Origin: an uncultured Gemmatimonadales bacterium
Lineage (GTDB): Bacteria; Gemmatimonadota; Gemmatimonadetes; Gemmatimonadales; GWC2-71-9
DNA: 64,000 bases
Reading direction: 5' to 3'
Assembly: GCA_963695185.1 (NCBI GenBank)
Contig: CAVOGH010000003.1
Span: 270,499 to 334,498 of the forward strand
A program made the translations under genes and the position numbers. The stretch's first letter is position 1. Every line of letters begins with the position of its first letter. Shown here piece after piece: positions 38,782-57,599 of the stretch. Below the pieces are notes generated by a model. That model had not been told where the DNA came from. It did not search any database and worked only from the letters and a program-made list of their open reading frames with translations.

Positions 38782-38806
38782 ACACCCCCACTCCTCGTGG
38801 GGGTGT
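38782..38806. terminator. Bidirectional GC hairpin between convergent genes
   Basis: ACACCCCCAC-TCCTC-GTGGGGGTGT, a perfect 10-bp stem between the usher gene (+) and the 38899 gene (-). Confidence 0.5.
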
Positions 38807-38898
38807 CGGCCAGGGCGGGGAGCCCTGACCTGCTGGGCAACCGGTTTGGAGAGGCCGTAGGAAGGGCCGGTTCACCCCATTCGATTGAATCGATCAGG

Positions 38899-39354: not shown

Positions 39355-39555
39355 GGAGATCCTCACAGGATTGAGGTACAGGGAGACCACAATGCCAGCT
39401 GCGTGCCAAAGTCGGAAACGGATGGGAGACATTGAGTTGCGCGATTCCGCCAAGCTCGGGAGTGTCCTCGATTGGAGACGGCGGGCAGGAAAAGTGTCCT
39501 CCCGGGAGACACTGTCGGCAGGAGAGGGGTCACATAAAAATGCGAAGGGATCACC

Positions 39556-39584
39556 TTGACACTGCCTTGGGGGGCCAGCATACT
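39556..39584 (+). promoter_or_regulatory. Sigma70-like promoter candidate for fae (TTGACA-N17-CATACT)
   Basis: TTGACA at 39556-39561, 17-nt spacer, CATACT at 39579-39584 (alternatively TACTAT at 39581-39586). Lies in an AT-richer region and implies a ~175-nt leader. Confidence 0.4.
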
Positions 39585-39766
39585 ATGGCCTCCCATGGTG
39601 CCGAGGCTGGCGCTTGGGTCCTTGCCGGACGGTGCTCTCCCAGTACGCCACATCGGACCGTTCGCGCTGATTCGCGGGATTCCCCTTGCCCCCGTGGAAG
39701 CTGCATATGTCTATGTGGCAACAGATACTCACCTTCCTTACAACTTCCTCGCAATCGGAGGGCAGC

Positions 39767-40279
39767 ATGGCAGCGGATTTCTTCTTGGGCGAGTCACTCG
39801 TAGGTGAGGGCAATGAAATCGCCCACATCGATCTGATTATCGGCAGCAAGAGCGGTCACGCCGGCGCGGCCTTCTGCAACGCGCTCACGAACAACAAGGA
39901 CGGCTTCACCACGCTGCTCGCGGTGGTGGCGCCGAACCTGCCGGCCAAGCCGGACACCATCATGTTCAACAAGGTGACCATCAAGGGCGCCACGCAGGCG
40001 GTGCAGATGTTCGGCCCGGCCCAGGCGGCCGTGGCCCGCGCCGTCGTGGACAGCGTGGCCTCCGGGGTCATCCCGAAGGACAAGGCCAACGACTGGTGCG
40101 TGATGGTCGGGGTGTTCATCCACTGGCAGGCCGCAGACGACAAGAAGATCTATCAGTTCAACTACCAGGCGACCAAGGAATCCATCGAGCGGGCGCTCAA
40201 GGGCCTGCCGACGGTGGATTCGGTGGTCAGTGGCTCCAAGACCGCGCGTCACCCGTTCTCGGGCGTGGATAACGCCTGA
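39767..40279 (+). CDS. fae: Formaldehyde-activating enzyme (5,6,7,8-tetrahydromethanopterin hydro-lyase)
   Basis: GGAG RBS at 39757-39760, ATG 39767. [71 protein letters not shown] and HPF are near-colinear with Methylorubrum Fae as I recall it. Confidence 0.9.
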
Positions 40280-40300
40280 GTCCCGGCCCACTCGCGGGAG

Positions 40301-40332
40301 ACAGAGGGGCGGGGCGATCCCCGCCCCTCTGT
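40301..40332 (+). terminator. Strong GC hairpin downstream of fae
   Basis: ACAGAGGGGCGGGG-CGAT-CCCCGCCCCTCTGT, a perfect 14-bp stem 22 nt after the fae stop. No clear U-tract. Confidence 0.6.
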
Positions 40333-40400
40333 CATGTCAGGCTCTCACGCCGTGACGGGCGGCTCCGGCCGCCCGGACGGACCCTCAGGGACTTGCCGAT

Positions 40401-41270
40401 ATGCGTAAACTCCTCCTCCAGCTCGACTCCTCCCGGCACCCCAGCGTCTTCGACCAGGTCGTCGCCTACGACGGCGGCGCCGATGAAATCATGAGTTACG
40501 GCGGCGTCACGCCGGAGGACGTCCGCGACCTGGTACATGGCTGCATCTTCACCCGGGGCCCCAAGGACCTGCACCGGACCGCCATCTGGATCGGCGGCAA
40601 CAACATGTCCCAGGGGGAGCAGCTGCTGGCCATGGCGGTGGACGCGATGTTTCCGCCCTTCAACGTCTCGGTCATGCTGGACTCCAACGGCTCCAACACC
40701 ACGGCGGTGGCCGCGGTGGTGAAGATCGAGCAGACCCTCGGCGACCTGAAGGACAAGAACGTCCTGGTGCTGGCCGGTACCGGACCGGTCGGCCAGCGGG
40801 CCGCCGGGCTGCTGGCCCGCGACGGCGCCAGGGTCACGATCACCTCCCGGAAGCCGGAGCAGGGCGAGAAGGCCCGCCAGTTCATCAGCGCCCGGTTCAA
40901 TGTCCAGGTGGAGGCGGTCACGCTATCGGATCCGGCCCAGGCCGGGGAGCTGCTCGAGGGCGTGGACGTGCTGCTCAACTCGGGCCCGGCCGGGGTCCAG
41001 ATGGTTCCCAAGTCCGCCTGGACCGCGCACAAGTCCATCAAGGTGGCGGTAGACCTGAACGCCGTGCCGCCGCTGGGGATCGAGGGGATCGAGGTCAACG
41101 ATGCCGGGAAGGAACGCCACGGCGTGGTGATGTTCGGCGCCTTCGGCGTCGGGAACTTCAAGACCAAGCTCCACAAGCGCTGCGTGGCCTGCCTGTTCGA
41201 GAAGAACGATCTGGTCCTGGACGCCGAGCACATCGCGGAGATCGCCCGGGCACTGGTCAAGACCGAGTGA
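40401..41270 (+). CDS. mtdB: NAD(P)-dependent methylene-tetrahydromethanopterin dehydrogenase (MtdA/B/C family)
   Basis: ..PSVFDQVVAYDGGAD.., ..WIGGNN.., ..LAGTGPVGQRAA.. (Rossmann) and ..VAVDLNAVPPLGIEGIEVND.. match the Mtd family. The subtype (A/B/C) is not resolvable by eye. Confidence 0.8.
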   Translation: MRKLLLQLDSSRHPSVFDQVVAYDGGADEIMSYGGVTPEDVRDLVHGCIFTRGPKDLHRTAIWIGGNNMSQGEQLLAMAVDAMFPPFNVSVMLDSNGSNTTAVAAVVKIEQTLGDLKDKNVLVLAGTGPVGQRAAGLLARDGARVTITSRKPEQGEKARQFISARFNVQVEAVTLSDPAQAGELLEGVDVLLNSGPAGVQMVPKSAWTAHKSIKVAVDLNAVPPLGIEGIEVNDAGKERHGVVMFGAFGVGNFKTKLHKRCVACLFEKNDLVLDAEHIAEIARALVKTE

Positions 41271-45539: not shown

Positions 45540-46811
45540 ATGCCCGCGTCCTCCAAACCCCAAGCAGATGTGCTGAACGTCGCCTGTCCCTTCTGCGGAC
45601 TGGTGTGCGACGACCTCACCGTGCGACTGGGCGATCCACTCGAAGTGCGGGCCAACGGCTGCCCCATCGCCGGGCCGGCCTTTGGGCGCGCGCCGGGTGA
45701 CGCCACCCCACGCATCGCGGGCAAGCCGGCCACCCTGGACGCGGCCGTGGCCGAGGCGGCGCGACTGCTGGGCTCGGCGCGGCTGCCGCTGGTCGCGGGG
45801 CTGGCCACCGACGTGGCGGGCGCCCGGGCGGCGGGCCGGCTGGCCGATCGGACCGGCGGCGTGCTGGATCACATGAATGCCACCGCCATGCTGCGCAACG
45901 TCATGGTGCTGCAGGACTCCGGCTGGATCACCACTACCCTCTCCGAAGTGCGCAACCGGGCCGACCTGCTCATCGTGGCCGGCGGAGACCTGGTCAGCCG
46001 CTTCCCGCGGTTCTTCGAGCGCTGCATCGCAAACGAGGAGACCCTTTTCGACGGCAAACGGCGGTGTGAAGTGGTCTTTCTCGGATCCCCGGTCCCGGCG
46101 GGGCTCGACCTACCCGGGCCGGTGCGGTCGGTCAGTTGTGAGGTGTCCCGGCTGGGGGAGGCCTTCGGGGTGATGCGCGCCCTGCTGGCGGGCCAGCGGC
46201 TCGGCGCGGAGCAGGCGGCGGGTGCGCCGCTGGCGACCTGGCAGGCGCTGGCCGACCGGATGCGGGCGGCTCGCTACGGCGTGGTGGCGTGGGCGGCCGC
46301 CGATTTTGACTTCCCGCACGCGGAACTGACCATCCAGACGGTGTGCGAGCTGATCCGCGACCTGAACCGGGACACCCGCTTCGCCGGCCTGCCGCTGGGA
46401 GGGAGCGAAGGGGACATCACCAGCGACAGCGTCCACGTCTGGCAGACCGGGTACGGCTCGCGCACCTCGTTCGGGGCCGGCTACCCGACGCAGGACCTGT
46501 ATCACCACGCTGCCGCCGGCCTGCTGGAATCCGGCGCCGCCGACGCGATGCTCTGGATCTCCAGCTTCAACGAGACCCGCACCCCGCCGGACGCCGCGAT
46601 CCCGGTGATCGTGCTCGGCCGGACCGGCATGCGCTTCGGGCGGGAGCCCGCGGTGTTCATCCCGGTGGGCACGCCGGGTGTGGACCACGCCGGCCATCTC
46701 TTCCGCACCGACCGGGTGGTGGCCCTGCCGCTCGGCCAGCTCAGGAACTCGGATCTGCCGAGCGTGGCCCAGGTGATCGAGGCCATCGAAGCCGCGCTCG
46801 GGGAGGCCTGA
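45540..46811 (+). CDS. fhcB: Formyltransferase/hydrolase complex subunit B (FmdB/FwdB homologue lacking the active-site Cys)
   Basis: ATG 45540 (ATG 45507 is an alternative). N-terminal CPFCGLVCDD Fe-S-like motif. The position equivalent to the ..TSVCHG.. of the paralogue at 49958 reads ..LDHMNATAM.. with no Cys-His. Confidence 0.8.
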   Translation: MPASSKPQADVLNVACPFCGLVCDDLTVRLGDPLEVRANGCPIAGPAFGRAPGDATPRIAGKPATLDAAVAEAARLLGSARLPLVAGLATDVAGARAAGRLADRTGGVLDHMNATAMLRNVMVLQDSGWITTTLSEVRNRADLLIVAGGDLVSRFPRFFERCIANEETLFDGKRRCEVVFLGSPVPAGLDLPGPVRSVSCEVSRLGEAFGVMRALLAGQRLGAEQAAGAPLATWQALADRMRAARYGVVAWAAADFDFPHAELTIQTVCELIRDLNRDTRFAGLPLGGSEGDITSDSVHVWQTGYGSRTSFGAGYPTQDLYHHAAAGLLESGAADAMLWISSFNETRTPPDAAIPVIVLGRTGMRFGREPAVFIPVGTPGVDHAGHLFRTDRVVALPLGQLRNSDLPSVAQVIEAIEAALGEA

Positions 46812-46814
46812 CCG

Positions 46815-48485
46815 ATGCTCCTCAAGCTGGCGGGCGGGCGGGTCTATGATCCGGCGCACGGCGTGGACGGCACGGTGCGTGACGTCTACATCCGGGACGG
46901 GAAGATCGCCCCCGCGCCGGCGGGCGACGAGCGGATTGACCGGGTCTATGATCTGTCCGGCCGGGTGGTCATGGCGGGGGCGATCGACATGCACACCCAC
47001 ATCGGCGGCGGCAAGCTGAACATCGCCCGGGCGATGCTGCCGGAGGATCACCGGGGCGACCCGGTGGCGCGCACGGCCCTGACCCGGTCCTCTTCCGGCC
47101 GGGCGGCACCGGGGACCTTCGCCACCGGCTACCGCTACGCCGAGATGGGGTACACCGCCTGTTTCGAGCCGGCCATCCTGCCCATCAACGCCCGCCAGGC
47201 CCACCTCGAGATGGGTGACACGCCGATGGTGGACAAGGGCGGGTATGTCATGCTGGGGAGCGATGACTTCCTGCTGCGGATGATGGCGGCGGGCGAGGAC
47301 CAGCAGCGCATCAATGACTATGTGGCGTGGACCCTCAACGCCACGCGCTGTATCGGCATCAAGGTGGTGAACCCCGGCGGGATCAGCGCGTTCAAGTTCA
47401 ACCGGCGCATGCTGGACCTGGACGAGCCCAATCCCCATTACGGCGTGCGGCCGAGGGACATTCTCCGGGTCCTGAGCCGGGCGGTGTACGAACTCGGGGT
47501 GCCGCACCCGCTGCACGTGCACGGCAGCAATCTCGGCGTCCCCGGCAATGTGGAATCGACCCTCGGCACCATCCGGGCCGCAGAGGGGCTGCCGATTCAC
47601 CTGACCCACATCCAGTTCCATTCCTATGGGACCGAGGGAGACCGCAAGTTTTCCTCGGCCGCGACCCGCATCACCGAGGCGATCAACGGCACCCCCAACG
47701 CCACCTGTGACGTGGGGCAGATCCTCTTTGGCCAGACGGTGACCGCCTCGGGCGACAGCATGGCCCAGCACCGCCAGGCCGCGCATGCCAGCCCGCGGAA
47801 GTCGGTGATCATGGACATCGAGTGCGATGCCGGCTGCGGCGTGCTGCCGTTCCGGTACCGCGACACGAACTTCGTGAACGCCCTCCAGTGGGCCATCGGC
47901 CTGGAGATCTTCCTGCTGGCCAGCGACCCCTGGCGGGTCTTCCTGACGACTGACCACCCCAACGGGGCGCCGTTCACTACCTATCCCCACCTGATCCGGC
48001 TGCTGATGGACCGGACCTTCCGGAACGACCGGCTGGCCCAGCTCAATCCCGAGGCCCGGGCCATGACCACGCTGGGGAGCATCGACCGCGAGTACTCGCT
48101 GTACGAGATCGCCACTCTTACCCGGGCCGCCCCGGCGCGGCTGCTGGGGCTGGCCGACCTGGGGCACCTGGGTCCGGGCGCCGACGCCGACGTCACGGTG
48201 TACCGGGAGGACCCGGACCGGGAGCGGATGTTCACGACGCCGGAGTATGTCTTCAAGGCGGGCGAGCCGGTGGTGCGGGACGGCAAGATCATCAAGGTGA
48301 CCTGGGGCCGCTATCACACGGTGCAGCCGGCGTACGACCGTGGCATCGAGCGGCGGCTGCAGCAGTATTTCGCCCGCTACCAGACGGTCCGGGCCGAGCA
48401 CCTAGTGATTTCGGACGAGGAGATGCACAGCTTCGGCCACGGCGGCGCGGTACTCGTCCATCCCTGCCGGGGAGGCCGGCGATGA
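46815..48485 (+). CDS. fhcA: Formyltransferase/hydrolase complex subunit A (FwdA-type amidohydrolase)
   Basis: ..GRVVMAGAIDMHTHIGGGK.., ..HPLHVHGSNLGVPGN.., ..HLTHIQFHSYG.. and ..TTDHPNGAPF.. are FwdA/FhcA motifs. The frame is intact. Confidence 0.9.
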   Translation: MLLKLAGGRVYDPAHGVDGTVRDVYIRDGKIAPAPAGDERIDRVYDLSGRVVMAGAIDMHTHIGGGKLNIARAMLPEDHRGDPVARTALTRSSSGRAAPGTFATGYRYAEMGYTACFEPAILPINARQAHLEMGDTPMVDKGGYVMLGSDDFLLRMMAAGEDQQRINDYVAWTLNATRCIGIKVVNPGGISAFKFNRRMLDLDEPNPHYGVRPRDILRVLSRAVYELGVPHPLHVHGSNLGVPGNVESTLGTIRAAEGLPIHLTHIQFHSYGTEGDRKFSSAATRITEAINGTPNATCDVGQILFGQTVTASGDSMAQHRQAAHASPRKSVIMDIECDAGCGVLPFRYRDTNFVNALQWAIGLEIFLLASDPWRVFLTTDHPNGAPFTTYPHLIRLLMDRTFRNDRLAQLNPEARAMTTLGSIDREYSLYEIATLTRAAPARLLGLADLGHLGPGADADVTVYREDPDRERMFTTPEYVFKAGEPVVRDGKIIKVTWGRYHTVQPAYDRGIERRLQQYFARYQTVRAEHLVISDEEMHSFGHGGAVLVHPCRGGRR

Positions 48486-49392
48486 TCCTCAACGGCGTGA
48501 CGATCGACGACGCGTTCGCGGAGGCCTTCGCGATGAAGGCCACGCGCATCCTGATTACGGCCCACAACCTGGAATGGGCGTACCACGCGGCGAACGCCGC
48601 CACCGGGTTTGCCACGTCGGTCATCGCCTGCGGCTGCGAAGCCGGGCATCGAGCGCGAGCTGGGCCCCGACGAGACCCCCGACGGGCGGCCCGGGGTGTC
48701 GGCGCTGCTGTTTGCCGTCTCCACCAAGGAGCTGACCAAGCAGCTCACCCGCAGGGTCGGCCAGTGCGTGCTGACCTCGCCGACCAGCGCGGTGTTCTCC
48801 GGCATCGAGAAGGGGGAGCGGCTGCCCCTCGGGAAGCACCTGCGCTACTACGGCGACGGTTTCCAGACGTCCAAGGTGATCGGCGGGCGGCGGTACTGGC
48901 GCATTCCGGTGATGGATGGCGACTTCCTGATCGAGGACATGACCACGATGGTCAGCGGCGTGGGTGGCGGCAATTTCCTGGTGCTGGCGGAGTCGCAGGA
49001 GCAGGCGCTGCGGGCCTGTGAGGCATCGGTCCGGGTGATGCGGCAACTGCCGAATATCATCCTGCCCTTCCCCGGAGGGGTGGTCCGCTCCGGATCCAAG
49101 ATCGGCTCCAAGTATGCGGGGCTGCAGTGCGTCGACCAACGACGCCTTCTGTCCCACGATCAGAGGTGTCACCGCCTCGCAGCTTACCCCGGAGATCGAG
49201 GCGGTGATGGAGATCGTCATCGATGGGCTGACCGCCGCGGACGTCGCCGGGGCCATGCGCGTCGGGGTCCAGGCGGTCGTCGACATGGGCGCGGCCTGCG
49301 GCATCCGGCGGATCAGCGCGGGGGACTATGGCGGCAAGCTGGGCAGGCATCATTTCCGGCTGCATGAGATCATGGCCGGCGCGCGCGGGTGA
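48482..49392 (+). CDS. fhcD: Formylmethanofuran:H4MPT formyltransferase (Ftr/FhcD), copy 1, two frameshifts in this assembly
   Basis: Three successive frames: MILNGVTIDDAFAEAFAMKATRILITA..TGFATSVIACGCEAG | IERELGPDETPDGRPGVSALLF..PFPGGVVRSGSKIGSKYAGLQ | ASTNDAFCPTIRGV..GDYGGKLG. The first shift is an extra G in the 48644-48646 run. The second is near 49118-49122. Confidence 0.85.
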
Positions 49393-49582
49393 CGGGCGGC
49401 GGCACCCCCGGGACGCGCCTCGCGTGGGGGCGGGCGGGCCGGGACAACGCAGGGGACATCGCCGCCGGCGGTCCCTCTTGCTAAGACCCCCGCTGACGTG
49501 TAGGTAACAAGGACTGACGGGCAGTCCGGGGCTCGAGGCAGCACCTTCCCTTGTTCACTCTTTTCGGTTGCGTCGTGCTCCC

Positions 49583-49930
49583 ATGGCTGAGAAGATGATG
49601 CTGATCGGCGGTCGCTCCACCAAACAGGGCACAGCCCTGTGCGCCGGCAAGCTCGAGGCTGAATACCTTGATGTGTCCTCGACGGTGGAAATGAACGTCG
49701 AGGACATGGCGCGTCTGGGCCTTCAGAATGACAGCAAGGTGCGGCTCACGACCCCGGTCGGGGAGGCCGTGCTGCGCTGCAAGGGCCGGGAAACCAAGGA
49801 CCTGCCGAAAGGCCTCCTGTTCATGGCCTACGGACCACACTCGAGCCGGCTGATGGCCGGGGACACCGCCGGCAGCGGCATGCCGCTGTCGAAGAACCTG
49901 GACGTCGAGGTGGAGCCGATCCGGGAGTAG
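49583..49930 (+). CDS. fwdD: Formylmethanofuran dehydrogenase subunit D (molybdopterin-dinucleotide-binding beta-barrel)
   Basis: ATG 49583. ..MMLIGGRSTKQGTA..VEMNVEDMARLGLQNDSKVRLTTPVGEAVLRCK..GLLFMAYGP.. is typical of FwdD/FmdD. Confidence 0.8.
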   Translation: MAEKMMLIGGRSTKQGTALCAGKLEAEYLDVSSTVEMNVEDMARLGLQNDSKVRLTTPVGEAVLRCKGRETKDLPKGLLFMAYGPHSSRLMAGDTAGSGMPLSKNLDVEVEPIRE

Positions 49931-49957
49931 GGCGCACCACTTGAGGAGGGCGACATC

Positions 49958-51304
49958 ATGAGCGACGACCACATCAAGGTCATCCCGAACGCCACCTGCA
50001 CCTTCTGTGGCTGCGTCTGCGATGACATGATCCTCACCGTCGACACGCATGAGCACCGGATCACCAAGTCGCAGAACGCCTGCGTCCTCGGCAAGGCGTG
50101 GTTCAAGGAGCACGCCATCGAGGAGCGCCCGTTCGCCCTGGTCGGCGGCCGGGAGGCGAGCACCGAGGAAGGCATCGAGGAGGCGGCCCAGATCCTGGCC
50201 AATGCGCGCTTTCCGATCATCTACGGGCTCTCGGACACGACCTGCGAGGCACAGCGTGTGGCGGTGTCCATCGCGGACATGATCGGCGGCAACATCGACA
50301 CCACGACGTCGGTCTGCCACGGCCCATCGGGGATCGCGTTCCAGGGGGTGGGGGAGAGCACCGCCACCCTGGGCGAGATCAAGAACCGGGCGGACCTGGT
50401 CATCTTCTGGGGCGGCAACCCGGCGGAGGCGCATCCGCGGCTGTTCACCCGGTATGCGGTGACCGCCAAGGGCATCAACATCCCCAACGGCCGGAAGGAC
50501 CGGACCGTCGTCCTGGTGGATGTGCGGCGCACCGCCAGCACGCCGGTGGCGGACATCTTCCTGCAGGTGAAGCCGCGTTCCGACTTCGAGGTCCTGTGGG
50601 CGCTGCGGGCGCTGGTCAAGGGGCAGAAGGTCGATGCGTCCATCGAAGAGCGGACCGGCATCTCCCTGGCCGTTCTGGAGGACCTGGTCGACCGGATGAA
50701 GCGCTGCCAGTTCGGGGCCTTCCTGTTCGGCATGGGGCTCACGATGAACCGCGGCCGGCACTTCAACGCCGGCGCGTTGCTGGCGCTCGCCACCGACCTC
50801 AACGAGTTCACCCACTTCGTCGCCGCGCCGGTGCGCGGCCACGGCAACGTGACCGGCGCGGACAACGTGGTCTCGTGGCAGACGGGCTACCCGTTCGGCG
50901 TGAATTTCAGCCGCGGCTTCCCGCGCTTCGGTCCCGGGGAGTTCACCACGGTGGACGTGCTCGCCCGGGGCGATGCCGACGCGGCGATGATCATCGCGAG
51001 CGACCCCGCCTCCAACTTCCCCCAGGCGGCGATCGAGCACCTCAAGCGGATCCCGGTCATCACGCTCGACCCCAAGACCACGATCACCAGCCAGCTCGCC
51101 CGGGTGGCCTTCACCACCGCGACCTACGGCATCAACACGCCCGGCACGGTCTACCGCATGGACAACGTGCCGATCACGCTGCGCCCCGCGTTCGACTCGC
51201 CCTACCCCAGCGACGAGGAGATCCTGACCGGCATCCGCACCCGGGTGCACGAGCTGCTTGGCGGCAACCGGCTGCCCGTGGACACTTCGGCCGCGCTGCA
51301 GTAG
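49958..51304 (+). CDS. fwdB: Formylmethanofuran dehydrogenase subunit B with conserved Cys-His active-site pair
   Basis: [11 protein letters not shown]-terminal CTFCGCVCDD. ..IDTTTSVCHGPSG.. with Cys120 (nt 50315-50317) in the xCHG context of Mo/W bis-PGD formate-dehydrogenase-type enzymes. The frame is intact. Confidence 0.85.
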   Translation: MSDDHIKVIPNATCTFCGCVCDDMILTVDTHEHRITKSQNACVLGKAWFKEHAIEERPFALVGGREASTEEGIEEAAQILANARFPIIYGLSDTTCEAQRVAVSIADMIGGNIDTTTSVCHGPSGIAFQGVGESTATLGEIKNRADLVIFWGGNPAEAHPRLFTRYAVTAKGINIPNGRKDRTVVLVDVRRTASTPVADIFLQVKPRSDFEVLWALRALVKGQKVDASIEERTGISLAVLEDLVDRMKRCQFGAFLFGMGLTMNRGRHFNAGALLALATDLNEFTHFVAAPVRGHGNVTGADNVVSWQTGYPFGVNFSRGFPRFGPGEFTTVDVLARGDADAAMIIASDPASNFPQAAIEHLKRIPVITLDPKTTITSQLARVAFTTATYGINTPGTVYRMDNVPITLRPAFDSPYPSDEEILTGIRTRVHELLGGNRLPVDTSAALQ

Positions 51305-51329
51305 ATCCACGCCGCCGGGAGAACCGCTC

Positions 51330-53016
51330 ATGGCCCCGATGCTGCGCATCGTCAACGGCAGAGTGTACGACCCGGCCAACGGGCTCGACGGCGAGGTGCA
51401 GGACATCTGCATCCGGGACGGCCGCATCGTCGCCGACGTGCCGCCCGACGCCCGGACAATCGACGCCCGCGGGATGGTCGTGATGCCGGGGGGCGTCGAC
51501 ATCCACTGCCACATCGCCGGCTCGAAGGTCAACCTCGCCCGCAAGCTGCAGCCGGACGACCATCGCCGTGACCCGCACCTGCGCACCCGGTTCACCCGGT
51601 CGGGGACGGGCGGCACCGTGCCGTCCACCTTTGCCACCGGGTACCGCTACGCGGCCCTCGGCTACACCACGGCGATGGAAGCCGCGATTTCGCCGCTGGG
51701 CGCCCGGCACACGCTGGAAGAGTTTCACGATACGCCGGTCATCGACAAGGGATTCTTCATCCTGATGGGCAACAACGTGCTGCTCTACCGGCTGCTCCAG
51801 GAGGGCCGGCACGAGGAGTTCCGCCACGCGCTGGCCTGGTGGCTCAGTGCCACGAAGGCCTACGCCCCCAAGCTGGTGAACCCGGGGTCGGATGAACTCT
51901 GGAAGGGCCAGCGCAACGCCAACATCGCGCTGCTGGACGACAAGATCGGCCCGTTCGACCTCACGCCGAGAAAGGTGATCGACGCCTTCATCGGGACCGC
52001 CAACGACCTGGGCCTCCCCCACCCGGTGCACATCCACTGCAACAACCTGGGCCACACCGGGAACTACGACGACCACCCTCGAGACGATGAAGATCGCCGG
52101 CGACCGGCGGGCCCACATCACCCATATCCAGTTCCACAGCTACGGATCGGTGGCCGGGAAGAGCGGCGACAACCCGACCTCCCGGGCGCGCGACATCTCC
52201 GAGTACGTCAACACCCACCCCAACATCAGCGCCGACGTCGGCGCCGTGATGTTCGGCCGCTCCACCAGCATGACGGCCGACGCGCCGCTGGCCTATATGC
52301 TCCGCCGTTTCGGGGGCGGGAGGTGGGTGAGCGCCGACACCGAGCATGAGAGCGGCTGCGGCATCGTGCCGTTCACGTACCAGGATCACGTCTATACCAA
52401 CGCGCTCCAGTGGGCGATCGGCCTGGAGCTGTTCCTGCTGTCGGAAGACCCCTGGCGGATGGTGTTTTCCACCGACCACCCCAACGGCGGGTCCTTCATG
52501 AGCTATCCGAAGCTCATCCGGCTGCTGATGGACCGCGAATTCCGCAAGGAGGAGATGGCCAAGGTGAACCAGTCGGCGATCGAGCACAGCGGGCTGCGCG
52601 ACTGCCAGGAGCGCGAGTACTCCCTGTTCGAGATCGCGATCATCACCCGCGCCGGCCCGGCCCGACTCCTGGGCCTCACCGCGAAGGGCCACCTCGGCGT
52701 GGGGGCCGATGCCGACATCACGATCTATGAGGACGACGCGGACAAGGAGAAGATGTTCTCCGCCCCGCGGTACGTGATCAAGGACGGCGAACTCATCATC
52801 GAGGACCACGAGTTCCGCGTGGACCACCTGGGCCGCGTCCTGCACGTCGCGCCGGACTACGACCAGGGCATCGAGCAGGTGATTCAGCCCTTCTTCGAGG
52901 ACTACTACACCATCCAGTTCGAGAACTACCCGGTCGACCCCAGCTACCTGCATCACCACCAGACCATCCCCACCACGTTGCAGGCGGCCGCGACCGCCCC
53001 GTCGGCCGGCGCCTAG
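51330..53016 (+). CDS. fwdA: Formylmethanofuran dehydrogenase subunit A, copy 2, one frameshift in this assembly
   Basis: MAPMLRIVNGRVYDP..GGVDIHCHIAGSK..HPVHIHCNNLGHTGNYD | (T)TLETMKIAGDRRAHITHIQFHSYG..TDHPNGGSF... A single extra nt near 52068-52072 separates the 51258 and 52087 track frames. Confidence 0.85.
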
Positions 53017-53019
53017 GCC

Positions 53020-53929
53020 ATGGCCCCGTTGCGCATCCGCGAGACCGAGATCGCCGACACCTTCGCCGAAGCCTTCGCCATGTGGGGGGCCCGGGTGGTG
53101 ATCACCGCCGAGACCGCCGAATGGGCCATGGCGGCCGCCCAGTCGATGACCGGGTTCGCCACGTCGGTCATCGGCTGCAAGTGCGAAGCGGGCATCGAGG
53201 CCAGCCTGCCACCGGACGCGACCCCGGACCACCGCCCCGGTGTGAGCGTCCTGCTTTTCTCCATGAACGCCGAAGGCGTGGGCAAGCGGCTGGTCGAGCG
53301 GGTCGGACAATGCGTGATGACCTGCCCGAGCACGGCGTGCTACAACGGCCTGGTCGGGGCCGAGCAGGTGACGGTCGGCGGCCAGCTGCGCTACTTCGGG
53401 GACAAGCACCAGATCGCCAAACGGCTCGAGGGCAGGCGGATGTGGCGCGTCCCGGTGATGGACGGCGAGTTCCTCGTGGACGATCAGTTCGGCATCCAGG
53501 CGGCGGTGGGCGGCGGCAACATCCTGATCCTGGGCCGGGATGAGCGGGCGACGCTCGCGGCCGCGGCGGCCGCCGCGGCCGCGATGCGAGGGATTCCGGG
53601 GCACGATCCTGCCGTTTCCCGGCGGAGTGGTGCGGAGCGGGAGCAAACCCAAGTCCCGCTACAAGTTCCTCTTCGCGTCCACCAACGATGCGTTCTGCCC
53701 CACCCTGCGCAGCATCTCGGCGGACACCCAGGTGGCCGACGGCGTCGGCTCCGTCCTGGAGATCGTCATCGACGGCCTCGACCTCGCCTCGGTCGAGACC
53801 GCGATGCGCCGCGGCATGCACGCCGCCGCCGAGGCGGGCGCACTTCAGATCAGCGCCGGGAACTACGGCGGCGGACTGGGCCAATACCAGATCGGCCTCC
53901 ACTCGCTTCTCGAAGGCGTGAAGGTATGA
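53020..53929 (+). CDS. ftr: Formylmethanofuran:H4MPT formyltransferase (Ftr), copy 2, one frameshift in this assembly
   Basis: ..FAEAFAMWGARVVITA..TGFATSVIGCKCEAGIE.. then ..ILPFPGGVVRSGSKPKSRYKFLFASTNDAFCPTL... The shift is an extra G in the G-run 53598-53601. Confidence 0.85.
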
Positions 53930-53960
53930 GGCGGTCCGCGGCGTGTCCGGACGCACAGCC

Positions 53961-54791
53961 ATGAGCCTCGACCTCACGCTGTACGCGGCGCCGGCGGTGC
54001 CGCTCGAGGCCGATGTGCTCAGCCCACAACGACTGGCCGGTCTGTCCGCCCTCCAGGCCGCGAAGCTGGGCGTCGCCCACGGCAATCAGCGAGCCGAGCT
54101 GGGGGAGTTCTTCCGGATCTCCGGGACGGCGGACGGCGAAGTCCACGTCACCGGCGACCTCTCCAGGGTCAAACAGGTCGGCACGGGAATGTCGGAGGGC
54201 CGGCTGGTGGTGCACGGCCCGGTCGGCATGCACCTGGGCGCCGGCATGACGGGCGGCGAGATCCGGGTGGAGGGCGACGCTGGCGACTGGGTGGGTCCCG
54301 AGATGACCGGTGGCCTCATCGTGGTCACCGGGAACGCCGGCCACCTGGTCGGAAGCTCCCTCCGCGGGGACGCGACCGGCATGCGCGGCGGCGAGATCAT
54401 GATCTTCGGCAACGCCGGGAATGAGGTGGGCAGCGGGATGCGCCGGGGGCTGATCGCCATCGGCGGCGACTCCGGGGATTTCACCGGCGTGAACATGCTC
54501 GCCGGCACGGTCGTCGTGCTGGGCCACCTGGGCTGGCGCACCGGGGCCGGGATGAAGCGGGGCACGATCGTCTCGATGCACCCGGTGGAGATGCTGCCGA
54601 CCTTCAGCTACGCCTGCACCTATCGTCCGGTCTTTCTCCGGCTGTATCTTGCGCGGCTTCGCCGACTGGGGCTGCCGATCAGCGAGCCCCAGCTGGACGG
54701 CCTCTACCGCCGCTGGTGCGGCGACGCGATCGAGCTGAACCGGGGCGAGGTGCTGCTGCTCGAAACCGGGGAGACCCCGATCCCCCGCTAG
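53961..54791 (+). CDS. fwdC: Formylmethanofuran dehydrogenase subunit C family (FwdC/FhcC), copy 1
   Basis: Repeated GxxGG turns (..GAGMTGGEIRVEGDAGDWVGPEMTGGLIVVTGNAG..GMRGGEIMIFGNAG..) of the GXGXG beta-helix typical of FwdC/FhcC. ATG 53961 was chosen over GTG 53943. Confidence 0.85.
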   Translation: MSLDLTLYAAPAVPLEADVLSPQRLAGLSALQAAKLGVAHGNQRAELGEFFRISGTADGEVHVTGDLSRVKQVGTGMSEGRLVVHGPVGMHLGAGMTGGEIRVEGDAGDWVGPEMTGGLIVVTGNAGHLVGSSLRGDATGMRGGEIMIFGNAGNEVGSGMRRGLIAIGGDSGDFTGVNMLAGTVVVLGHLGWRTGAGMKRGTIVSMHPVEMLPTFSYACTYRPVFLRLYLARLRRLGLPISEPQLDGLYRRWCGDAIELNRGEVLLLETGETPIPR

Positions 54792-54857
54792 GGAGCCCCT
54801 CGCCGCCACCGAGGCAGATGCAGTCGCCGCAGGTGATCATCCACCAGGAAATGCCGC

Positions 54858-55673
54858 ATGAGCACGCTCCGCCTCACCCTCCGCGAGCCTCCCGCCCAGC
54901 GGGTCGACATGTCACCGCTGGCCATCGACCGTATCGCGGGAAAGACCATTGCCCAGGTGAAGGCGACCGAGCTCACAAGCGGCAACCGCACGGTGCGGGC
55001 AGACAGCCTCTTCGAAATCACCGGCGACTACACCGCGGAGCTGGAGATCCGCGGCGGGTCCGACCGGCTGGACCGTATCGGAGAAGGCATGACCCGCGGA
55101 CGGGTGGTCGTCCGGGGTGACGTGGGGGCGTATCTCGGAGCCGGCATGACGGGCGGTCATGTCGAGGTCCACGGCGCCGCCGGTGCCTACGCCGCGACCG
55201 GGATGCAGGGCGGCATGATTCACATCACTGGGCGTGCCGGCGACTTCCTGGCCGGGGCGATCCCGGGCGACCACCAGGGAATGCGGGGCGGTACCGTCGT
55301 CGTCGCCGGAGATGCCGGCGACCGCACCGGCGACCGCATGCGACGGGGGATGCTCCTCATCGAGGGAGGCGTCGGTGACTACTGCGCCTCCCGCATGGTG
55401 GCCGGCACCATCGCGGTGCTGGGGAAGGCGGGCGCGTTTCCCGGGTTCGCCATGCGCCGCGGCACCCTCCTGCTGCGGCACGCCCCTGACCCGGCGCTCC
55501 CGACCTTCAGTGACTGCGGTGAGTACGCCCTCGGCTTTCTCACGCTCCTGGCGCGTTCCTGGCGCACCCTTCCCGGCAAATTCGCGGGCTTCCCGGACAC
55601 GGGCCTGCGGGTCCGGCGCCTGATGGGCGACCGGGCCAACGGGGGCATGGGGGAAATCCTGATCCTGGTCTGA
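54858..55673 (+). CDS. fhcC: Formylmethanofuran dehydrogenase subunit C family (FwdC/FhcC), copy 2
   Basis: Same GXGXG beta-helix repeats (..GAGMTGGHVEVHGAAG..GMQGGMIHITGRAG..GMRGGTVVVAGDAG..). Paralogue of the preceding gene. Confidence 0.85.
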   Translation: MSTLRLTLREPPAQRVDMSPLAIDRIAGKTIAQVKATELTSGNRTVRADSLFEITGDYTAELEIRGGSDRLDRIGEGMTRGRVVVRGDVGAYLGAGMTGGHVEVHGAAGAYAATGMQGGMIHITGRAGDFLAGAIPGDHQGMRGGTVVVAGDAGDRTGDRMRRGMLLIEGGVGDYCASRMVAGTIAVLGKAGAFPGFAMRRGTLLLRHAPDPALPTFSDCGEYALGFLTLLARSWRTLPGKFAGFPDTGLRVRRLMGDRANGGMGEILILV

Positions 55674-55776: not shown

Positions 55777-56736
55777 ATGACCAGCCTCAACATGAACGAG
55801 CGTGCCCGCGACCTCGCAGACGTGATGACCGAGGATCCGGCAGGACTCCGCATCGCTGAGCAGCTGCTCCCCGGCGGGGCGCGGGTCATTGACGCCGGTG
55901 TCAACATGGATGGCGGCTACAACGCCGGCCTGCTCCTGAGCGAGATCTGCATGGGCGGGCTGGGCGATGTCGAGTACTGCCCGGTGTCCCTCGGCGGAAC
56001 CAACTGGCCGGCGGTGCAGGTCCGCACGGACTTCCCCGCGCAGGCCTGCATGGCGTCGCAGTATGCCGGCTGGGCCATCCAGGTGGACAAGTTCTTCGCC
56101 ATGGGATCGGGGCCGCTCCGGGCCCATGCCCGGGTGGAGAAGGAGCTGTTCGAGAAGCTGGGCTACGCCGAGGAGGCAACGGTCGGTGTCCTGGTGCTGG
56201 AGGGCCGGGAGCTGCCCACGGACGCGGTGGCGGAGTGGGTGGCCAGGAAGGCGGGGCTCTCCCCCGGACAGCTGATCTTCATCGTGGCGCCGACGGCCAG
56301 CCTGGCCGGCGGGGTACAGATCTCGGCGCGGATCCTCGAGACGGGCCTCCACAAGATGGAGACGCTCGGGTTCGAGGTCAGCAAGGTGATGAGCGGGATC
56401 GGTACGGCGCCGGTGGCTCCCCTGGCCAAGAACGACCTGCGGGGCATCGGCCGGACCAACGACTGCATTCTGTACGGCGGCCAGGCGCACTACACCCTCA
56501 AGGCGAGCGACACCGAACTGGCGGACCTGGCGGCCCGGCTGCCGGCCAGCGCCTCCAAGGACTACGGCACGCCGTTCTACGACATCTTCGAGCGTTACGA
56601 CCGGGACTTCTACAAGATCGACCCGCTGCTCTTTTCTCCGGCCGAGGTGTGGCTGACCAGCGTGAGCTCCGGCAAGACATACCATGCGGGCCGCACCGAT
56701 CCGGACGTGCTGCGGCAATCGCTGTACCCGGAATGA
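55777..56736 (+). CDS. mch: Methenyl-tetrahydromethanopterin cyclohydrolase
   Basis: ..MASQYAGW..FAMGSGP.R.., ..APTASLAGGVQISARILETGLHKM.. and ..GRTNDCILYGG.. are Mch family blocks. The frame is intact. Confidence 0.9.
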   Translation: MTSLNMNERARDLADVMTEDPAGLRIAEQLLPGGARVIDAGVNMDGGYNAGLLLSEICMGGLGDVEYCPVSLGGTNWPAVQVRTDFPAQACMASQYAGWAIQVDKFFAMGSGPLRAHARVEKELFEKLGYAEEATVGVLVLEGRELPTDAVAEWVARKAGLSPGQLIFIVAPTASLAGGVQISARILETGLHKMETLGFEVSKVMSGIGTAPVAPLAKNDLRGIGRTNDCILYGGQAHYTLKASDTELADLAARLPASASKDYGTPFYDIFERYDRDFYKIDPLLFSPAEVWLTSVSSGKTYHAGRTDPDVLRQSLYPE

Positions 56737-56831: not shown

Positions 56832-57599
56832 ATGCGTCGCCTTACCGTTGTACCGCTGCTTGTTCTCGCCGCTGCCTGCTCGAAGCCCGATTCCAAGCCC
56901 GCCCAGGATACCACCGCCCAGGCGCCGGCCGGGCCGATGGCGTTCGTCACGGTCATCTACAACCAGCCCAAGGATGCCGCGGCCTTCGAGCGGTACTACT
57001 GGGATACCCATCTCCCGCTTCTCGACACGAAGCACCAGGAGATCGGGTTCGTCCATGGCGAACTGACCAAGTTCGACGCGACGCTCGACGGCAAGAAGCC
57101 GACGCACTACCGGCAGGCGGTGCTCTGGTTCAACAACATGGCGGACCTCCAGAAGGGCATCGCCACCGCCGGATTCAAGACCATCGGGGACGACTTGGCC
57201 AACTTCGCCTCCGGTGGGATCACGGCGCTGATCGGCGAGCAGACCGGCGAGGCCTCCCCATTTGTCACCGATAGCAGCGTCCACTTCGTGACGGTGCTCT
57301 ACAATCAGCCCAAGGATCCCGCGGCGTTCGAGGCGTACTACGCGGCCACCCACCTCCCGCTCCTGGGCCGAGGCGCCGCGGAGATCGCCTTTACCCGGGG
57401 GGAGCTGACGAAGTTCTCCTCCAACCTCGACGGTTCACCGGCCGCTTTCTACCGGCAGGCGAAGCTCTACTTCCCCAGCCAGGCCGCGCTCAAGACCGGC
57501 ACGGCGACCGCGGGCTTCACGGCGGTCGGAGGCGACCTGGGGAACTTCGCCGACGGTGGGCTGGTCGCCCTGGTGGGACACATGACGGTGAGCAAGTAG
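56832..57599 (+). CDS. Lipoprotein with two tandem EthD-like domains
   Basis: ATG 56832 gives MRRLTVVPLLVLAAC (lipobox). Two ~100-aa repeats each start (F)VTV(I/L)YNQPKD(A/P)AAFE.YY...HLPLL and end ..GG(I/L).AL(I/V)G. The track start at 56235 overlaps mch and was rejected. Confidence 0.6.
   Translation: MRRLTVVPLLVLAAACSKPDSKPAQDTTAQAPAGPMAFVTVIYNQPKDAAAFERYYWDTHLPLLDTKHQEIGFVHGELTKFDATLDGKKPTHYRQAVLWFNNMADLQKGIATAGFKTIGDDLANFASGGITALIGEQTGEASPFVTDSSVHFVTVLYNQPKDPAAFEAYYAATHLPLLGRGAAEIAFTRGELTKFSSNLDGSPAAFYRQAKLYFPSQAALKTGTATAGFTAVGGDLGNFADGGLVALVGHMTVSK

What the first reader, a model, noticed from the sequence alone, without database searches (positions are those of the whole stretch)
45540..55673. 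Two tandem paralogous formyl-methanofuran enzyme sets: an Fhc-type set (B subunit without Cys) followed by an Fwd-type set (FwdD + Cys-His B subunit), each with its own Ftr
Set 1 is B (45540), A (46815) and Ftr (48482). Set 2 starts after a 190-bp gap with a possible promoter (TTGCTA-N17-TAGGTA near 49479). It comprises FwdD (49583), B (49958), A (51330), Ftr (53020), C (53961) and C (54858).

The set-2 B subunit has ..TTSVCHGPSG.. (Cys120) and a CTFCGCVC cluster motif. Together with FwdD, this is the hallmark of catalytically competent Mo/W formylmethanofuran dehydrogenases. The set-1 B subunit reads ..LDHMNATAM.. at that site, like the methylotroph FhcB that only hydrolyses formyl-MFR to formate (established from Methylorubrum Fhc and methanogen Fwd/Fmd work).

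One organism would then possess both a hydrolytic route (to formate) and a redox route (formyl-MFR <-> CO2). The redox route could bypass formate or run in the CO2-reducing direction. That route would be unusual for a bacterium.
Basis: partly seen in the sequence, partly recalled or inferred. Interest (0 to 1): 0.7.

Follow-up and report, generated by a model that had tools for sequence, protein, structure and literature searches.

The report
Paired Fhc and Fwd-type enzyme clusters
A Gemmatimonadales-like bacterium carries, side by side, a formate-releasing formyl-methanofuran hydrolase complex and an archaeal-style dehydrogenase that looks redox-competent; this pairing is common in uncultured methylotroph-like bacteria, but I found no biochemical test of it.

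Summary
Two corrections apply. As given, the window carries four single-base insertions that break Ftr1 (twice), A2 and Ftr2. The last C gene belongs to set 1, not set 2.

There are two complete, anciently diverged sets (29-52% identity between paralogues):
- Fhc-type: B1-A1-Ftr1 plus Cb.
- Fwd-type: FwdD-B2-A2-Ftr2-Ca.

B2 keeps the four Fe-S cysteines and Cys120, His121 and Arg293. It has its FwdD cap and passes NCBI's FwdB cut-off. It is the slowest-evolving subunit. B1 lacks the three catalytic residues and evolves fastest.

The closest relative, a short-read assembly 89% identical in DNA, has the same gene order with every gene intact. The frameshifts are therefore probably assembly errors.

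The pairing is not rare. At least 587 species genomes carry a B2 relative, and 38 of 90 fetched loci hold both sets. In 47 of 56 loci with enough flank, an FprA-type NADPH:ferredoxin reductase lies beside the Fwd-type set; 40 also have an FdxA ferredoxin. This points to formyl-methanofuran oxidation to CO2. The window itself has neither partner gene.

Verdict: real, ordinary for its lineage, biochemically untested, moderately interesting.

The parts
45540..46811 (+). B1: Fhc-type B subunit (423 aa). The catalytic residues are replaced (Ala116, Met117, Gly287). The N-terminal four-cysteine motif is kept (C16, C19, C23, C41).
   Evidence: PDB hits: 5t5i_B at 5e-32 and 6s6y_B at 1.4e-25. TIGR03129 score is 289 bits, below the 327.8 cut-off. 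Residue table across 33 orthologues. Positions. An exact match, P0121, lies on a 561-kb public contig.
46815..48485 (+). A1: Fhc-type amidohydrolase subunit (556 aa), intact, with all binuclear-metal ligand motifs.
   Evidence: Amidohydro_3 at 6e-50. Best PDB hit is FhcA 6s6y_A at 4e-134, ahead of archaeal FwdA at 1.5e-126. Motifs HTHI, KVVNPG, HPLHVHGSNLG, THIQF and TDHPNG are present.
48482..49392 (+). Ftr1: formyltransferase of set 1 (FhcD-like). It is broken by two single-base insertions, near 48644 and at 49128. The repaired protein is 302 aa.
   Evidence: FTR and FTR_C pieces lie in three frames. Frames found by tblastn. Repair. Single-base insertions relative to L086. Best PDB hit is 6s6y_D at 2.5e-97.
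49478..49506 (+). Promoter-like motif TTGCTA-N17-TAGGTA in the 190-bp gap before fwdD.
   Evidence: Located. Conserved in L086, L089 (TAGTTA) and L016 (TTGCTC...TAGTAA) while the flanks diverge. It does not meet the sigma-70 scan criteria. No Rfam match in the gap.
49583..49930 (+). FwdD: the small capping subunit, equivalent to the fourth domain of formate dehydrogenases (115 aa).
   Evidence: PF01568 at 42.6 bits against a cut-off of 26.8. PDB FwdD chains 2ki8_A at 6e-14 and 5t5i_D at 2e-12. NF042908 scores 68 bits, below its 175 cut-off. The ATG at 49583 is conserved in all six aligned loci.
49958..51304 (+). B2: Fwd-type catalytic B subunit (448 aa), intact. Fe-S cysteines are C14, C17, C21 and C42. 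It keeps Cys120, His121 and Arg293.
   Evidence: PDB FwdB hits: 8rja_B at 4e-113 and 5t5i_B at 1e-109. 44% identical to M. wolfeii FwdB. TIGR03129 scores 496.9 bits against a 327.8 cut-off. The residues are kept in 85-88 of 88 relatives. It keeps 111 of 174 positions invariant in three archaeal FwdB chains, against 61 for B1.
51330..53016 (+). A2: Fwd-type amidohydrolase subunit, broken by one extra base at 52071. The repaired protein is 561 aa, with all metal-ligand motifs.
   Evidence: Two Amidohydro_3 pieces lie in two frames. Repair. The L086 orthologue is intact at 561 aa. Best PDB hit is archaeal FwdA 8rja_A at 9e-145, against FhcA at 7e-113. Motifs.
53020..53929 (+). Ftr2: formyltransferase of set 2, broken by one extra G at 53599. 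The repaired protein is 302 aa.
   Evidence: FTR and FTR_C lie in two frames. Repair. Insertion relative to L086. 69% identical to the set-2 Ftr of L084 and 55% to its set-1 Ftr. Best PDB hit is 6s6y_D at 1.4e-94.
53961..54791 (+). Ca: Fwd-type C subunit (276 aa), belonging to set 2.
   Evidence: Best PDB hits are archaeal FwdC (9sw6_K at 3e-50, 5t5i_C at 7e-45), ahead of FhcC at 2e-39. 67-69% identical to the C of set-2 operons and 37% to the Fhc-linked C.
54858..55673 (+). Cb: Fhc-type C subunit (271 aa), belonging to set 1 although it lies at the far end of the cluster.
   Evidence: Best PDB hit is FhcC 6s6y_C at 5e-46, ahead of FwdC at 7e-34. 55% identical to the C next to the Fhc-type Ftr in L084 and 36-38% to set-2 C subunits.
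55777..56736 (+). Mch, methenyl-H4MPT cyclohydrolase. This is pathway context, the step before Ftr.
   Evidence: PF02289 at 6e-123.
39671..41270 (+). Fae and methylene-H4MPT dehydrogenase. This is pathway context, the entry of formaldehyde into the H4MPT route.
   Evidence: PF08714 at 3e-69 and PF09176 at 4.5e-34.

Best explanation
The cluster encodes two complete, anciently separated formyl-methanofuran enzyme complexes inside an H4MPT-linked formaldehyde-oxidation island of a Gemmatimonadales-like bacterium.

Complex 1 is B1-A1-Ftr1 plus Cb. It is a formyltransferase/hydrolase of the Fhc kind. Ftr1 moves the formyl group from formyl-H4MPT to methanofuran or methylofuran, and A1 hydrolyses it to free formate. 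B1 and Cb are scaffolds.

Complex 2 is FwdD-B2-A2-Ftr2-Ca. It has the same front end, Ftr2 and A2. Its B2/FwdD pair, however, keeps a molybdo- or tungstopterin formate-dehydrogenase site and a [4Fe-4S] cluster. The formate made at A2 would therefore be oxidised to CO2 inside the complex, and the two electrons would leave through the cluster. In most relatives the acceptor is probably an FdxA-type ferredoxin, which an FprA-type reductase then uses to make NADPH. In this window the acceptor must be encoded elsewhere.

On this view the organism can either release formate, a branch point for assimilation, or burn the formyl group directly to CO2.

Shown here: gene identities, residue conservation, orthology of each subunit, wide distribution, and linkage to ferredoxin and reductase genes in relatives.

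Inferred: cofactor binding, direction of the reaction, division of labour between the two complexes, and that the four frameshifts are sequence errors.
For: B2 looks catalytic.
- It is collinear with archaeal FwdB (E 1e-109 to 4e-113, 44% identity) and has identical SVCHGPS and RGH motifs.
- Its four Fe-S cysteines, Cys120, His121 and Arg293 are kept in 85-88 of 88 relatives.
- It passes the TIGR03129 cut-off, and B1 does not.
- FwdD is present.

The subunits sort into two sets.
- A2 and Ca match archaeal Fwd chains best.
- A1 and Cb match M. extorquens Fhc chains best.
- Orthology is confirmed in loci where the two sets lie apart, or where only set 2 lies within the fetched DNA.

The rates of change fit the roles. 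Against 16 proteobacterial two-set loci, B2 is the most conserved subunit (75%) and B1 the least (43%).

The gene context fits a redox enzyme.
- An FprA/adrenodoxin-reductase gene (E 2e-112 to 1cjc_A and 1lqt_A) lies beside the Fwd-type set in 47 of 56 loci with enough flank.
- 40 of those loci also carry an FdxA-like ferredoxin.

The frameshifts look like errors.
- L086, 88.8% identical over 16.7 kb, has the same gene order with all genes intact.
- It differs from the window by single bases at exactly the break points.
- The repaired proteins have orthologue lengths and no stops.
- Other island genes are broken in the same way.
- L011, a MAG of the same order, shows breaks in A1 and Ftr1, only partly at the same positions.
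Against: - No ferredoxin, FprA-type reductase, polyferredoxin, Mo/W cofactor gene or Mo/W transporter gene lies in the 64-kb window. The closest relatives (L005-L007, L011, L016, L086, L089) also lack the ferredoxin/reductase pair in the locus.
- Nine single-base frameshift candidates lie in the roughly 24 kb that hold the island (39.8-64 kb). Long ORFs in the left 39 kb look intact. Real gene decay is therefore not excluded.
- Cofactor binding, the identity of the metal and enzyme activity cannot be read from sequence.
- No paper I retrieved reports a biochemically characterised bacterial Fwd.
- B1 keeps a four-cysteine motif whose role this model does not explain.
Confidence: 0.6

Rival explanations
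1. Decaying island. The frameshifts are real, so Ftr1, A2 and Ftr2, and several cofactor-biosynthesis genes, are recent pseudogenes. Neither route, or only part of one, works in this organism.
For: There are four frameshifts in 10 kb of the finding. At least four more lie in the flanking island genes: DUF1464, CitG, AA kinase and 4HFCP synthase. Long ORFs in the left 39 kb appear intact.
Against: - Every lesion is a single-base indel. There are no nonsense mutations, deletions or insertion elements.
- After each break, the new frame keeps its coding signal and 59-86% identity to orthologues.
- The repaired lengths equal those of orthologues.
- The source is a 561-kb contig, and another MAG of the same order, L011, shows the same kind of break.
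- The left part of the window could not be checked against relatives, so the apparent enrichment may be an artefact of how I looked.
Confidence: 0.22
2. Redundant hydrolases. Set 2 is a second Fhc-like formate-releasing complex. The B2/FwdD features are retained ancestral residues, and no pterin or redox chemistry is involved.
For: Both Ftr copies resemble FhcD more than archaeal Ftr. There is no electron-transfer partner in the window. I found no measurement of bacterial Fwd activity in the papers I retrieved.
Against: - B2 is the slowest-evolving of all nine subunits, and the known scaffold type, B1, is the fastest.
- The Fe-S cysteines and the Cys, His and Arg residues are invariant or nearly so across phyla.
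- FwdD is retained in 78 of 85 loci.
- Ferredoxin and FprA genes are linked to set 2 in most relatives.
Confidence: 0.1
3. Reductive use. Set 2 runs as in methanogens and fixes CO2 onto methanofuran for assimilation.
For: The enzyme family is reversible in archaea (PMC11656701). B2 and FwdD are close to the CO2-reducing archaeal enzymes.
Against: - The couple lies near -0.53 V (PMC11656701), far below NADPH, which is the partner implied by FprA in relatives.
- The island is otherwise a formaldehyde-oxidation module: Fae, Mtd and Mch.
- No hydrogenase, polyferredoxin or bifurcating module lies nearby.
Confidence: 0.05
4. One mixed assembly. The two sets form a joint super-complex in which B1's retained [4Fe-4S] site relays electrons from B2.
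For: B1-type subunits keep the four-cysteine motif in 30-33 of 33 orthologues. The two sets are co-located in 38 of 90 loci, often within one gene string.
Against: - In L084 the set-1 genes lie apart from set 2, partly on the other strand, and L012, L018, L083 and L085 show only set 2 within the fetched DNA.
- Each set has its own full complement of A, Ftr and C subunits.
Confidence: 0.08

Closest known systems
Tungsten formylmethanofuran dehydrogenase FwdABCDFG of Methanothermobacter wolfeii (PDB 5T5I)
   Same: Set 2 has FwdA, FwdB, FwdC and FwdD homologues. The FwdB residues Cys118, His119 and Arg288 and the N-terminal [4Fe-4S] cysteines are all kept, as are the FwdA metal ligands.
   Different: There are no FwdF or FwdG polyferredoxin subunits. 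A formyltransferase gene sits inside the operon. The host is bacterial and probably aerobic. The likely direction is oxidative.
Formyltransferase/hydrolase complex FhcABCD of Methylorubrum extorquens (PDB 6S6Y; PMC6926001)
   Same: Set 1 (B1, A1, Ftr1, Cb) has the same four subunits. A1, Ftr1 and Cb match the Fhc chains best. B1 lacks the Cys, His and Arg residues and has no FwdD.
   Different: B1 is about 60 residues longer and keeps the N-terminal four-cysteine motif that M. extorquens FhcB has lost. The gene order is B-A-Ftr, with C placed 5.5 kb downstream.
F420-reducing Fwd of Candidatus Ethanoperedens thermophilum (PDB 8RJA; PMC11493965)
   Same: It gives the best PDB matches for B2 and A2. 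It is a precedent for an Fwd core that runs oxidatively with a swapped electron-acceptor module.
   Different: It is archaeal and anaerobic, and its acceptor module is an F420 reductase. Here the relatives carry FdxA-type and FprA-type genes instead.
Bacterial fwdDBA-ftr-fwdC operon reported from Hakuba actinobacterial single-cell genomes (PMC7325909), and fwdD homologues noted in NC10, Firmicutes and Synergistetes (PMC5020050)
   Same: The operon content and order match set 2. FwdB has Cys118 and the Fe-S domain, and FwdE, FwdF and FwdG are absent.
   Different: Those reports describe a single set, there with no methanopterin biosynthesis genes found. Here the set lies beside a full Fhc set inside an H4MPT/methanofuran biosynthesis island. 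PMC5020050 stated that fwdD is absent from Proteobacteria, yet and one search show it in many proteobacterial MAGs.

Membership tests
FwdB/FmdB catalytic subunit (applied to B2) | N-terminal four-cysteine motif for the [4Fe-4S] cluster | tested here: met
   C14, C17, C21 and C42 align with the archaeal motif. They are kept in 87-88 of 88 relatives.
FwdB/FmdB catalytic subunit (applied to B2) | Cys or Sec ligand to W/Mo, plus the catalytic His and Arg (Cys118, His119 and Arg288 in M. wolfeii; PMC6926001) | tested here: met
   Cys120, His121 and Arg293 are present. They are kept in 85, 85 and 88 of 88 relatives.
FwdB/FmdB catalytic subunit (applied to B2) | Score above the curated cut-off of NCBIfam TIGR03129 | tested here: met
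   496.9 bits against a cut-off of 327.8.
FwdB/FmdB catalytic subunit (applied to B2) | Separate FwdD subunit that caps the pterin site | tested here: met
   The gene at 49583-49930 scores above the PF01568 threshold and matches PDB FwdD chains at 6e-14 to 5e-11. The narrower NF042908 model scores 68 bits, below its 175 cut-off.
FwdB/FmdB catalytic subunit (applied to B2) | Bound Mo/W bis-guanine-dinucleotide pterin and formyl-MFR dehydrogenase activity | not testable with these tools
   This needs metal analysis and an enzyme assay. Indirect support: B2 keeps 111 of 174 positions invariant in three archaeal FwdB chains.
Archaeal Fwd holoenzyme FwdABCDFG (applied to set 2) | Polyferredoxin or ferredoxin subunits FwdF and FwdG in the complex | tested here: not met
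   No Fer4-type gene lies in the cluster or anywhere in the window. Relatives carry a free FdxA-type ferredoxin instead.
FwdA/FhcA amidohydrolase (applied to A1 and A2) | Binuclear metal ligands: HxH, carboxylated Lys, two further His, and Asp (PMC6926001) | tested here: met
   A1 has HTHI, KVVNPG, HPLHVHGSNLG, THIQF and TDHPNG. A2 has HCHI, KLVNPG, HPVHIHCNNLG, THIQF and TDHPNG. For A2 this holds after removal of the extra base at 52071.
Fhc complex of methylotrophs (applied to set 1) | B subunit without the Cys, His and Arg residues and without an FwdD partner | tested here: met
   B1 has Ala116, Met117 and Gly287. The only Molydop_binding gene lies directly before B2.
Fhc complex of methylotrophs (applied to set 1) | B subunit lacking the N-terminal Fe-S domain, as in M. 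extorquens FhcB (PMC6926001) | tested here: not met
   B1 keeps C16, C19, C23 and C41. The motif is kept in 30-33 of 33 B1-type orthologues.
Fhc complex of methylotrophs (applied to set 1) | FhcD formyltransferase and FhcC scaffold present | tested here: met
   Ftr1 matches 6s6y_D best at 2.5e-97. Cb matches 6s6y_C best at 5e-46. Orthology was checked in L084. Ftr1 needs two single-base repairs.
Fhc complex of methylotrophs (applied to set 1) | Release of free formate from formyl-H4MPT | not testable with these tools
   This needs an enzyme assay.

The most novel reading that the evidence does not exclude
In many uncultured, probably aerobic bacteria the Fwd-type set with its built-in Ftr would be a formyl-H4MPT-to-CO2 oxidising machine. 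These bacteria include soil Gemmatimonadales, upland-soil-cluster gamma methanotroph MAGs, and other Gamma-, Beta- and Alphaproteobacteria. The machine would pass electrons through an FdxA-type ferredoxin and an FprA-type reductase to NADP+. It would work in parallel with Fhc and bypass free formate and a separate formate dehydrogenase. In the window's lineage it would use a partner encoded elsewhere.
Probability: 0.45. Interest if true: 0.65.

Novelty: new variant of a known kind. Interest (0 to 1): 0.5.

Why it matters
Textbook bacterial methylotrophy ends the H4MPT route with Fhc, which releases formate. A separate formate dehydrogenase then makes CO2. If the Fwd-type set is active, a large group of uncultured soil and sediment bacteria has a second exit that oxidises the formyl group to CO2 inside one complex. 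That exit would capture low-potential electrons as reduced ferredoxin or NADPH.

This would change how carbon and reducing power are budgeted in these organisms. It would add a molybdenum or tungsten requirement to their C1 metabolism. It would also give a bacterial, possibly oxygen-tolerant, relative of the methanogen CO2-fixing enzyme for study.

There is a practical consequence for annotation. Pipelines call both B subunits "formylmethanofuran dehydrogenase subunit B". The simple residue test (Cys, His and Arg plus FwdD) separates them.

Tried and rejected
- Source contig. B2 from the window is not on record. B1 has an exact match, P0121, on a 561-kb NCBI/ENA contig, but the contig could not be fetched. 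I therefore could not search the rest of the genome for ferredoxin, FprA, Mo/W cofactor or transporter genes.
- RNA elements. An Rfam scan of 38.5-57 kb at E up to 1 found only a chance snoRNA-like hit and no Moco or tungsten riboswitch.
- Promoter. The sigma-70 and terminator scan of the gap found no promoter and no terminator on the + strand.
- Electron partners in the window. tblastn with the ferredoxin, FprA-like and unknown 206-aa proteins of L084 found nothing better than E 0.47.
- Window annotation. Pfam on about 55 ORFs found no moa, moe, mob, mod or tup genes and no formate dehydrogenase.
- Plasmids. A protein search with B2 found only Fhc-like B subunits at 24-26% identity in Azospirillum, Paraburkholderia and others. 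That collection therefore gave no example of the B2 type.
- Literature. Eight searches found survey-level mentions of bacterial FwdB and fwdD (PMC10100899, PMC5020050, PMC7325909). None described the Fhc plus Fwd tandem or the ferredoxin/FprA linkage. Subscription papers such as Adam et al. 2019 are not in the library, so prior description cannot be ruled out.
- Programmed frameshift. I considered this for Ftr1 because L011 is also broken there. I rejected it because L001, L086 and L089 have intact genes.
- Structure prediction. I did not run it, because sequence matches to solved Fwd and Fhc chains were already decisive for fold.

Full report
**Observation.**
- Pfam and NCBIfam identify two amidohydrolase A subunits, two formyltransferases (FTR plus FTR_C), two GXGXG C subunits and one small Molydop_binding protein.
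- The two B subunits have little or no Pfam signal but match solved FwdB chains. B2 matches at 4e-113 to 1e-109 and B1 at 5e-32.
- The quoted motifs are real. B2 reads SVCHGPS, identical to M. wolfeii FwdB around Cys118 and His119. B2 reads PVRGH at the catalytic Arg288. CTFCGCVC together with C42 supplies the four Fe-S cysteines.
- B1 has Ala116, Met117 and Gly287 at the three catalytic positions.
- The defining residues are taken from the Fhc structure paper (PMC6926001).

The sequence as given does not encode intact Ftr1, A2 or Ftr2.
- Ftr1 runs through three reading frames. A2 and Ftr2 each run through two.
- Each break is one extra base: near 48644, at 49128, at 52071 and at 53599.
- Removing those four bases gives proteins of 302, 561 and 302 aa with no stops.

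The two C genes do not both belong to set 2.
- Ca (53961) matches archaeal FwdC best. It is 67-69% identical to the C of Fwd-type operons elsewhere.
- Cb (54858) matches M. extorquens FhcC best. It is the orthologue of the C that sits beside the Fhc-type Ftr in L084.
- The cluster therefore holds two complete sets: B1-A1-Ftr1 plus Cb, and FwdD-B2-A2-Ftr2-Ca.

**Are the frameshifts real?** The closest relative found is L086, a short-read Logan assembly.
- It is 88.8% identical in DNA over 16.7 kb and has the same gene order, with every gene intact. Its Ftr1 is 302 aa and its A2 561 aa.
- Within coding sequence it differs from the window by unpaired single-base indels at only five places. Four are the breaks above. 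The fifth is in DUF1464 at 41888.
- L001, L089 and L090 also have intact genes.
- Other island genes in the window are broken in the same way: CitG, AA kinase and 4HFCP synthase.
- After each break the new frame keeps its coding signal and 59-86% identity to orthologues.
- The exact B1 protein is on record on a 561-kb public contig. L011, a MAG of the same order held on a 1.7-Mb contig, shows similar breaks in A1 and Ftr1.
- I read the frameshifts as assembly errors, with probability about 0.75.
- The reservation is that frameshift candidates look denser in the island than in the left 39 kb. I could not check the left part against relatives.

**What the two sets are.** They are not recent duplicates.
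- Paralogue identities are 29% for B, 44% for A, 52% for Ftr and 39% for C.
- B2 is 44% identical to M. wolfeii FwdB, more than to B1.
- A1 matches FhcA best (4e-134). A2 matches archaeal FwdA best (9e-145, against 7e-113 for FhcA).
- Both Ftr copies are closer to FhcD than to archaeal Ftr.
- Both A subunits keep all ligands of the binuclear metal site.
- B2 passes NCBI's FwdB equivalog cut-off with 497 bits against 328. B1, at 289 bits, does not.
- B2 keeps 111 of 174 positions that are invariant in three archaeal FwdB chains, including the KNRAD...WG.NP..AHPR, RGH.NVTG and GT.YRMD blocks. B1 keeps 61.

**Distribution.** B2 has thousands of homologues. The top hits are 78-93% identical and are annotated FwdB in Gemmatimonadales and Anaerolineae MAGs.
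- The genome scan found at least 587 species genomes with a relative. The best 80 are Gemmatimonadales (mostly 78-86%) and many Gamma-, Beta- and Alphaproteobacteria (70-81%). They include an upland-soil-cluster gamma MAG and Methylococcales MAGs.
- From best hits and synteny, the window organism is most likely a member of the Gemmatimonadales.
- Across the fetched loci, the Fe-S cysteines and the Cys, His and Arg residues of B2 are kept in 85-88 of 88 sequences. The three exceptions are a third, divergent B type in L004, L009 and L010.
- FwdD is found in 78 of 85 loci.
- 38 of 90 loci hold both a B2 orthologue and a B1-type gene within the fetched DNA, in several different orders.
- "Unusual for a bacterium" therefore does not hold for uncultured bacteria.
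- In cultured-strain plasmids I found only Fhc-like B subunits. All 80 best genome hits are MAGs.

**Evidence on function from evolution and context.** Two lines of evidence bear on function.
- Rates of change. Against 16 proteobacterial loci that carry both sets, B2 is the most conserved of the nine subunits (75%). B1 (43%) and Cb (44%) are the least conserved. This is what one expects if B2 is a cofactor-laden catalytic subunit and B1 a scaffold.
- Neighbouring genes. In 47 of 56 loci with enough flank, a 460-aa gene of the adrenodoxin-reductase/FprA family lies beside the Fwd-type set; the L084 copy matches 1cjc_A and 1lqt_A at 2e-112. In 40 of these loci a 101-aa FdxA-like ferredoxin lies next to it.
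- A typical string is FwdD-B2-A2-Ftr2-Ca-Fd-Fpr-B1-A1-Ftr1-Cb, as in L053.
- In L001, the reductase sits exactly where the window has its 190-bp gap.
- The window and its nearest relatives lack the pair in the locus.

**Mechanism proposed.**
- Shown: two complete orthologous sets, intact catalytic signatures in B2 and FwdD, loss of those signatures in B1, and linkage of set 2 to ferredoxin and NADPH:ferredoxin reductase genes in relatives.
- Inferred for set 1: it works like Fhc. The formyl group moves from H4MPT to the furan cofactor, A1 hydrolyses it, and formate is released.
- Inferred for set 2: it does the same first two steps, then passes formate to the B2/FwdD pterin site. CO2 leaves, and two electrons go through the [4Fe-4S] cluster to a ferredoxin and, where FprA is present, on to NADP+.
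- The formyl-MFR couple lies near -0.53 V (PMC11656701). Oxidation towards ferredoxin or NADP+ is therefore downhill, and NADPH-driven CO2 reduction is not.
- The Ethanoperedens enzyme shows that Fwd cores can take different acceptor modules (PMC11493965).
- A plausible division of labour is formate for assimilation against direct combustion for energy. This part is inference only.

**Comparison with what is known.**
- Set 2 works like archaeal Fwd but is not a full member of the FwdABCDFG holoenzyme. It lacks FwdF and FwdG and contains an Ftr.
- Set 1 works like Fhc, but B1 keeps the Fe-S motif that M. extorquens FhcB lost.
- Bacterial fwdDBA-ftr-fwdC operons and bacterial FwdB have been noted at survey level (PMC7325909, PMC5020050, PMC10100899).
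- One review stated that fwdD is absent from Proteobacteria (PMC5020050), which contradict.
- In the library I could search, I found no description of the tandem Fhc plus Fwd layout or of the ferredoxin/FprA linkage. I also found no biochemical study of a bacterial Fwd.

**Regulation.** The proposed promoter TTGCTA-N17-TAGGTA (49478-49506) fails a strict sigma-70 scan. Both hexamers and their spacing are nevertheless conserved in L086, L089 and L016 while the flanks diverge. This gives modest support for a separate start of transcription for set 2. No riboswitch was found.

**Verdict.** It is a typical member of a widespread, database-annotated but untested bacterial variant of Fwd that sits next to Fhc. 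Interest is moderate at 0.5.

Noticed in passing
window 45585-45662 (B1 codons C16, C19, C23, C41); B1-type genes in 33 related loci: Fhc-type B subunits here keep the N-terminal CxxCxxxC...C motif in 30-33 of 33 orthologues. The structurally characterised M. extorquens FhcB lacks that whole domain. A retained [4Fe-4S] cluster in a supposedly non-redox scaffold is unexplained.
   Followed up: partly
L084 7737-9431; L085 7878-9579; L053 14802-16500; L001 8227-9621: An FdxA-like ferredoxin and an FprA/adrenodoxin-reductase-type gene lie beside the Fwd-type set in most related loci. They are absent from the window and its closest relatives. In L001 the reductase occupies the position of the window's 190-bp gap.
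   Followed up: yes
L004 14979-19514; L009 14952-19502; L010 14785-19328: A third, more divergent B-A-Ftr-C set occurs in some Gemmatimonadales MAGs. Its B is about 35% identical to B2. The Cys is replaced by Thr or Ala and the His by Ala, but the Arg is kept. In those loci it takes the place of the B1 set.
   Followed up: partly
window ~41888, ~58757, ~61085-61154, ~62040, ~63614: Further frameshift candidates lie in island genes outside the finding: DUF1464, CitG, AA kinase, 4HFCP synthase and a short-chain dehydrogenase. They appear denser here than in the left 39 kb of the window.
   Followed up: partly
window 56832-57599: A two-domain EthD-family protein lies directly after mch. It is conserved at that position in related Gemmatimonadales loci (L001, L089, L090). 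Its function in the C1 island is unknown.
   Followed up: no
window 38757-39818: About 1 kb upstream of fae has no codon-position G+C signal and no Pfam hit for the one ORF tested there (38629-39351). The matches to the relatives compared (L011, L006, L016) begin only at about 39.85-39.95 kb.
   Followed up: no
L055 9700-10000; also L061, L069, L080: Methylococcales MAG loci carry a B2 orthologue that keeps the catalytic Cys. No FwdD gene was detected within the fetched DNA. In L055, L061 and L069 an Ftr gene lies directly upstream instead.
   Followed up: partly
window 7721-17802: A radical-SAM gene, an ImuB-like Y-family polymerase gene and, some 4 kb further on, a DnaE2-like polymerase gene. 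The set looks like a damage-inducible mutagenesis cassette.
   Followed up: no
window 32706-38755: A run of DUF4402-type and unannotated secreted-looking proteins, including a 661-aa protein with a weak CarboxypepD_reg match. This may be a surface or fimbrial cluster.
   Followed up: no
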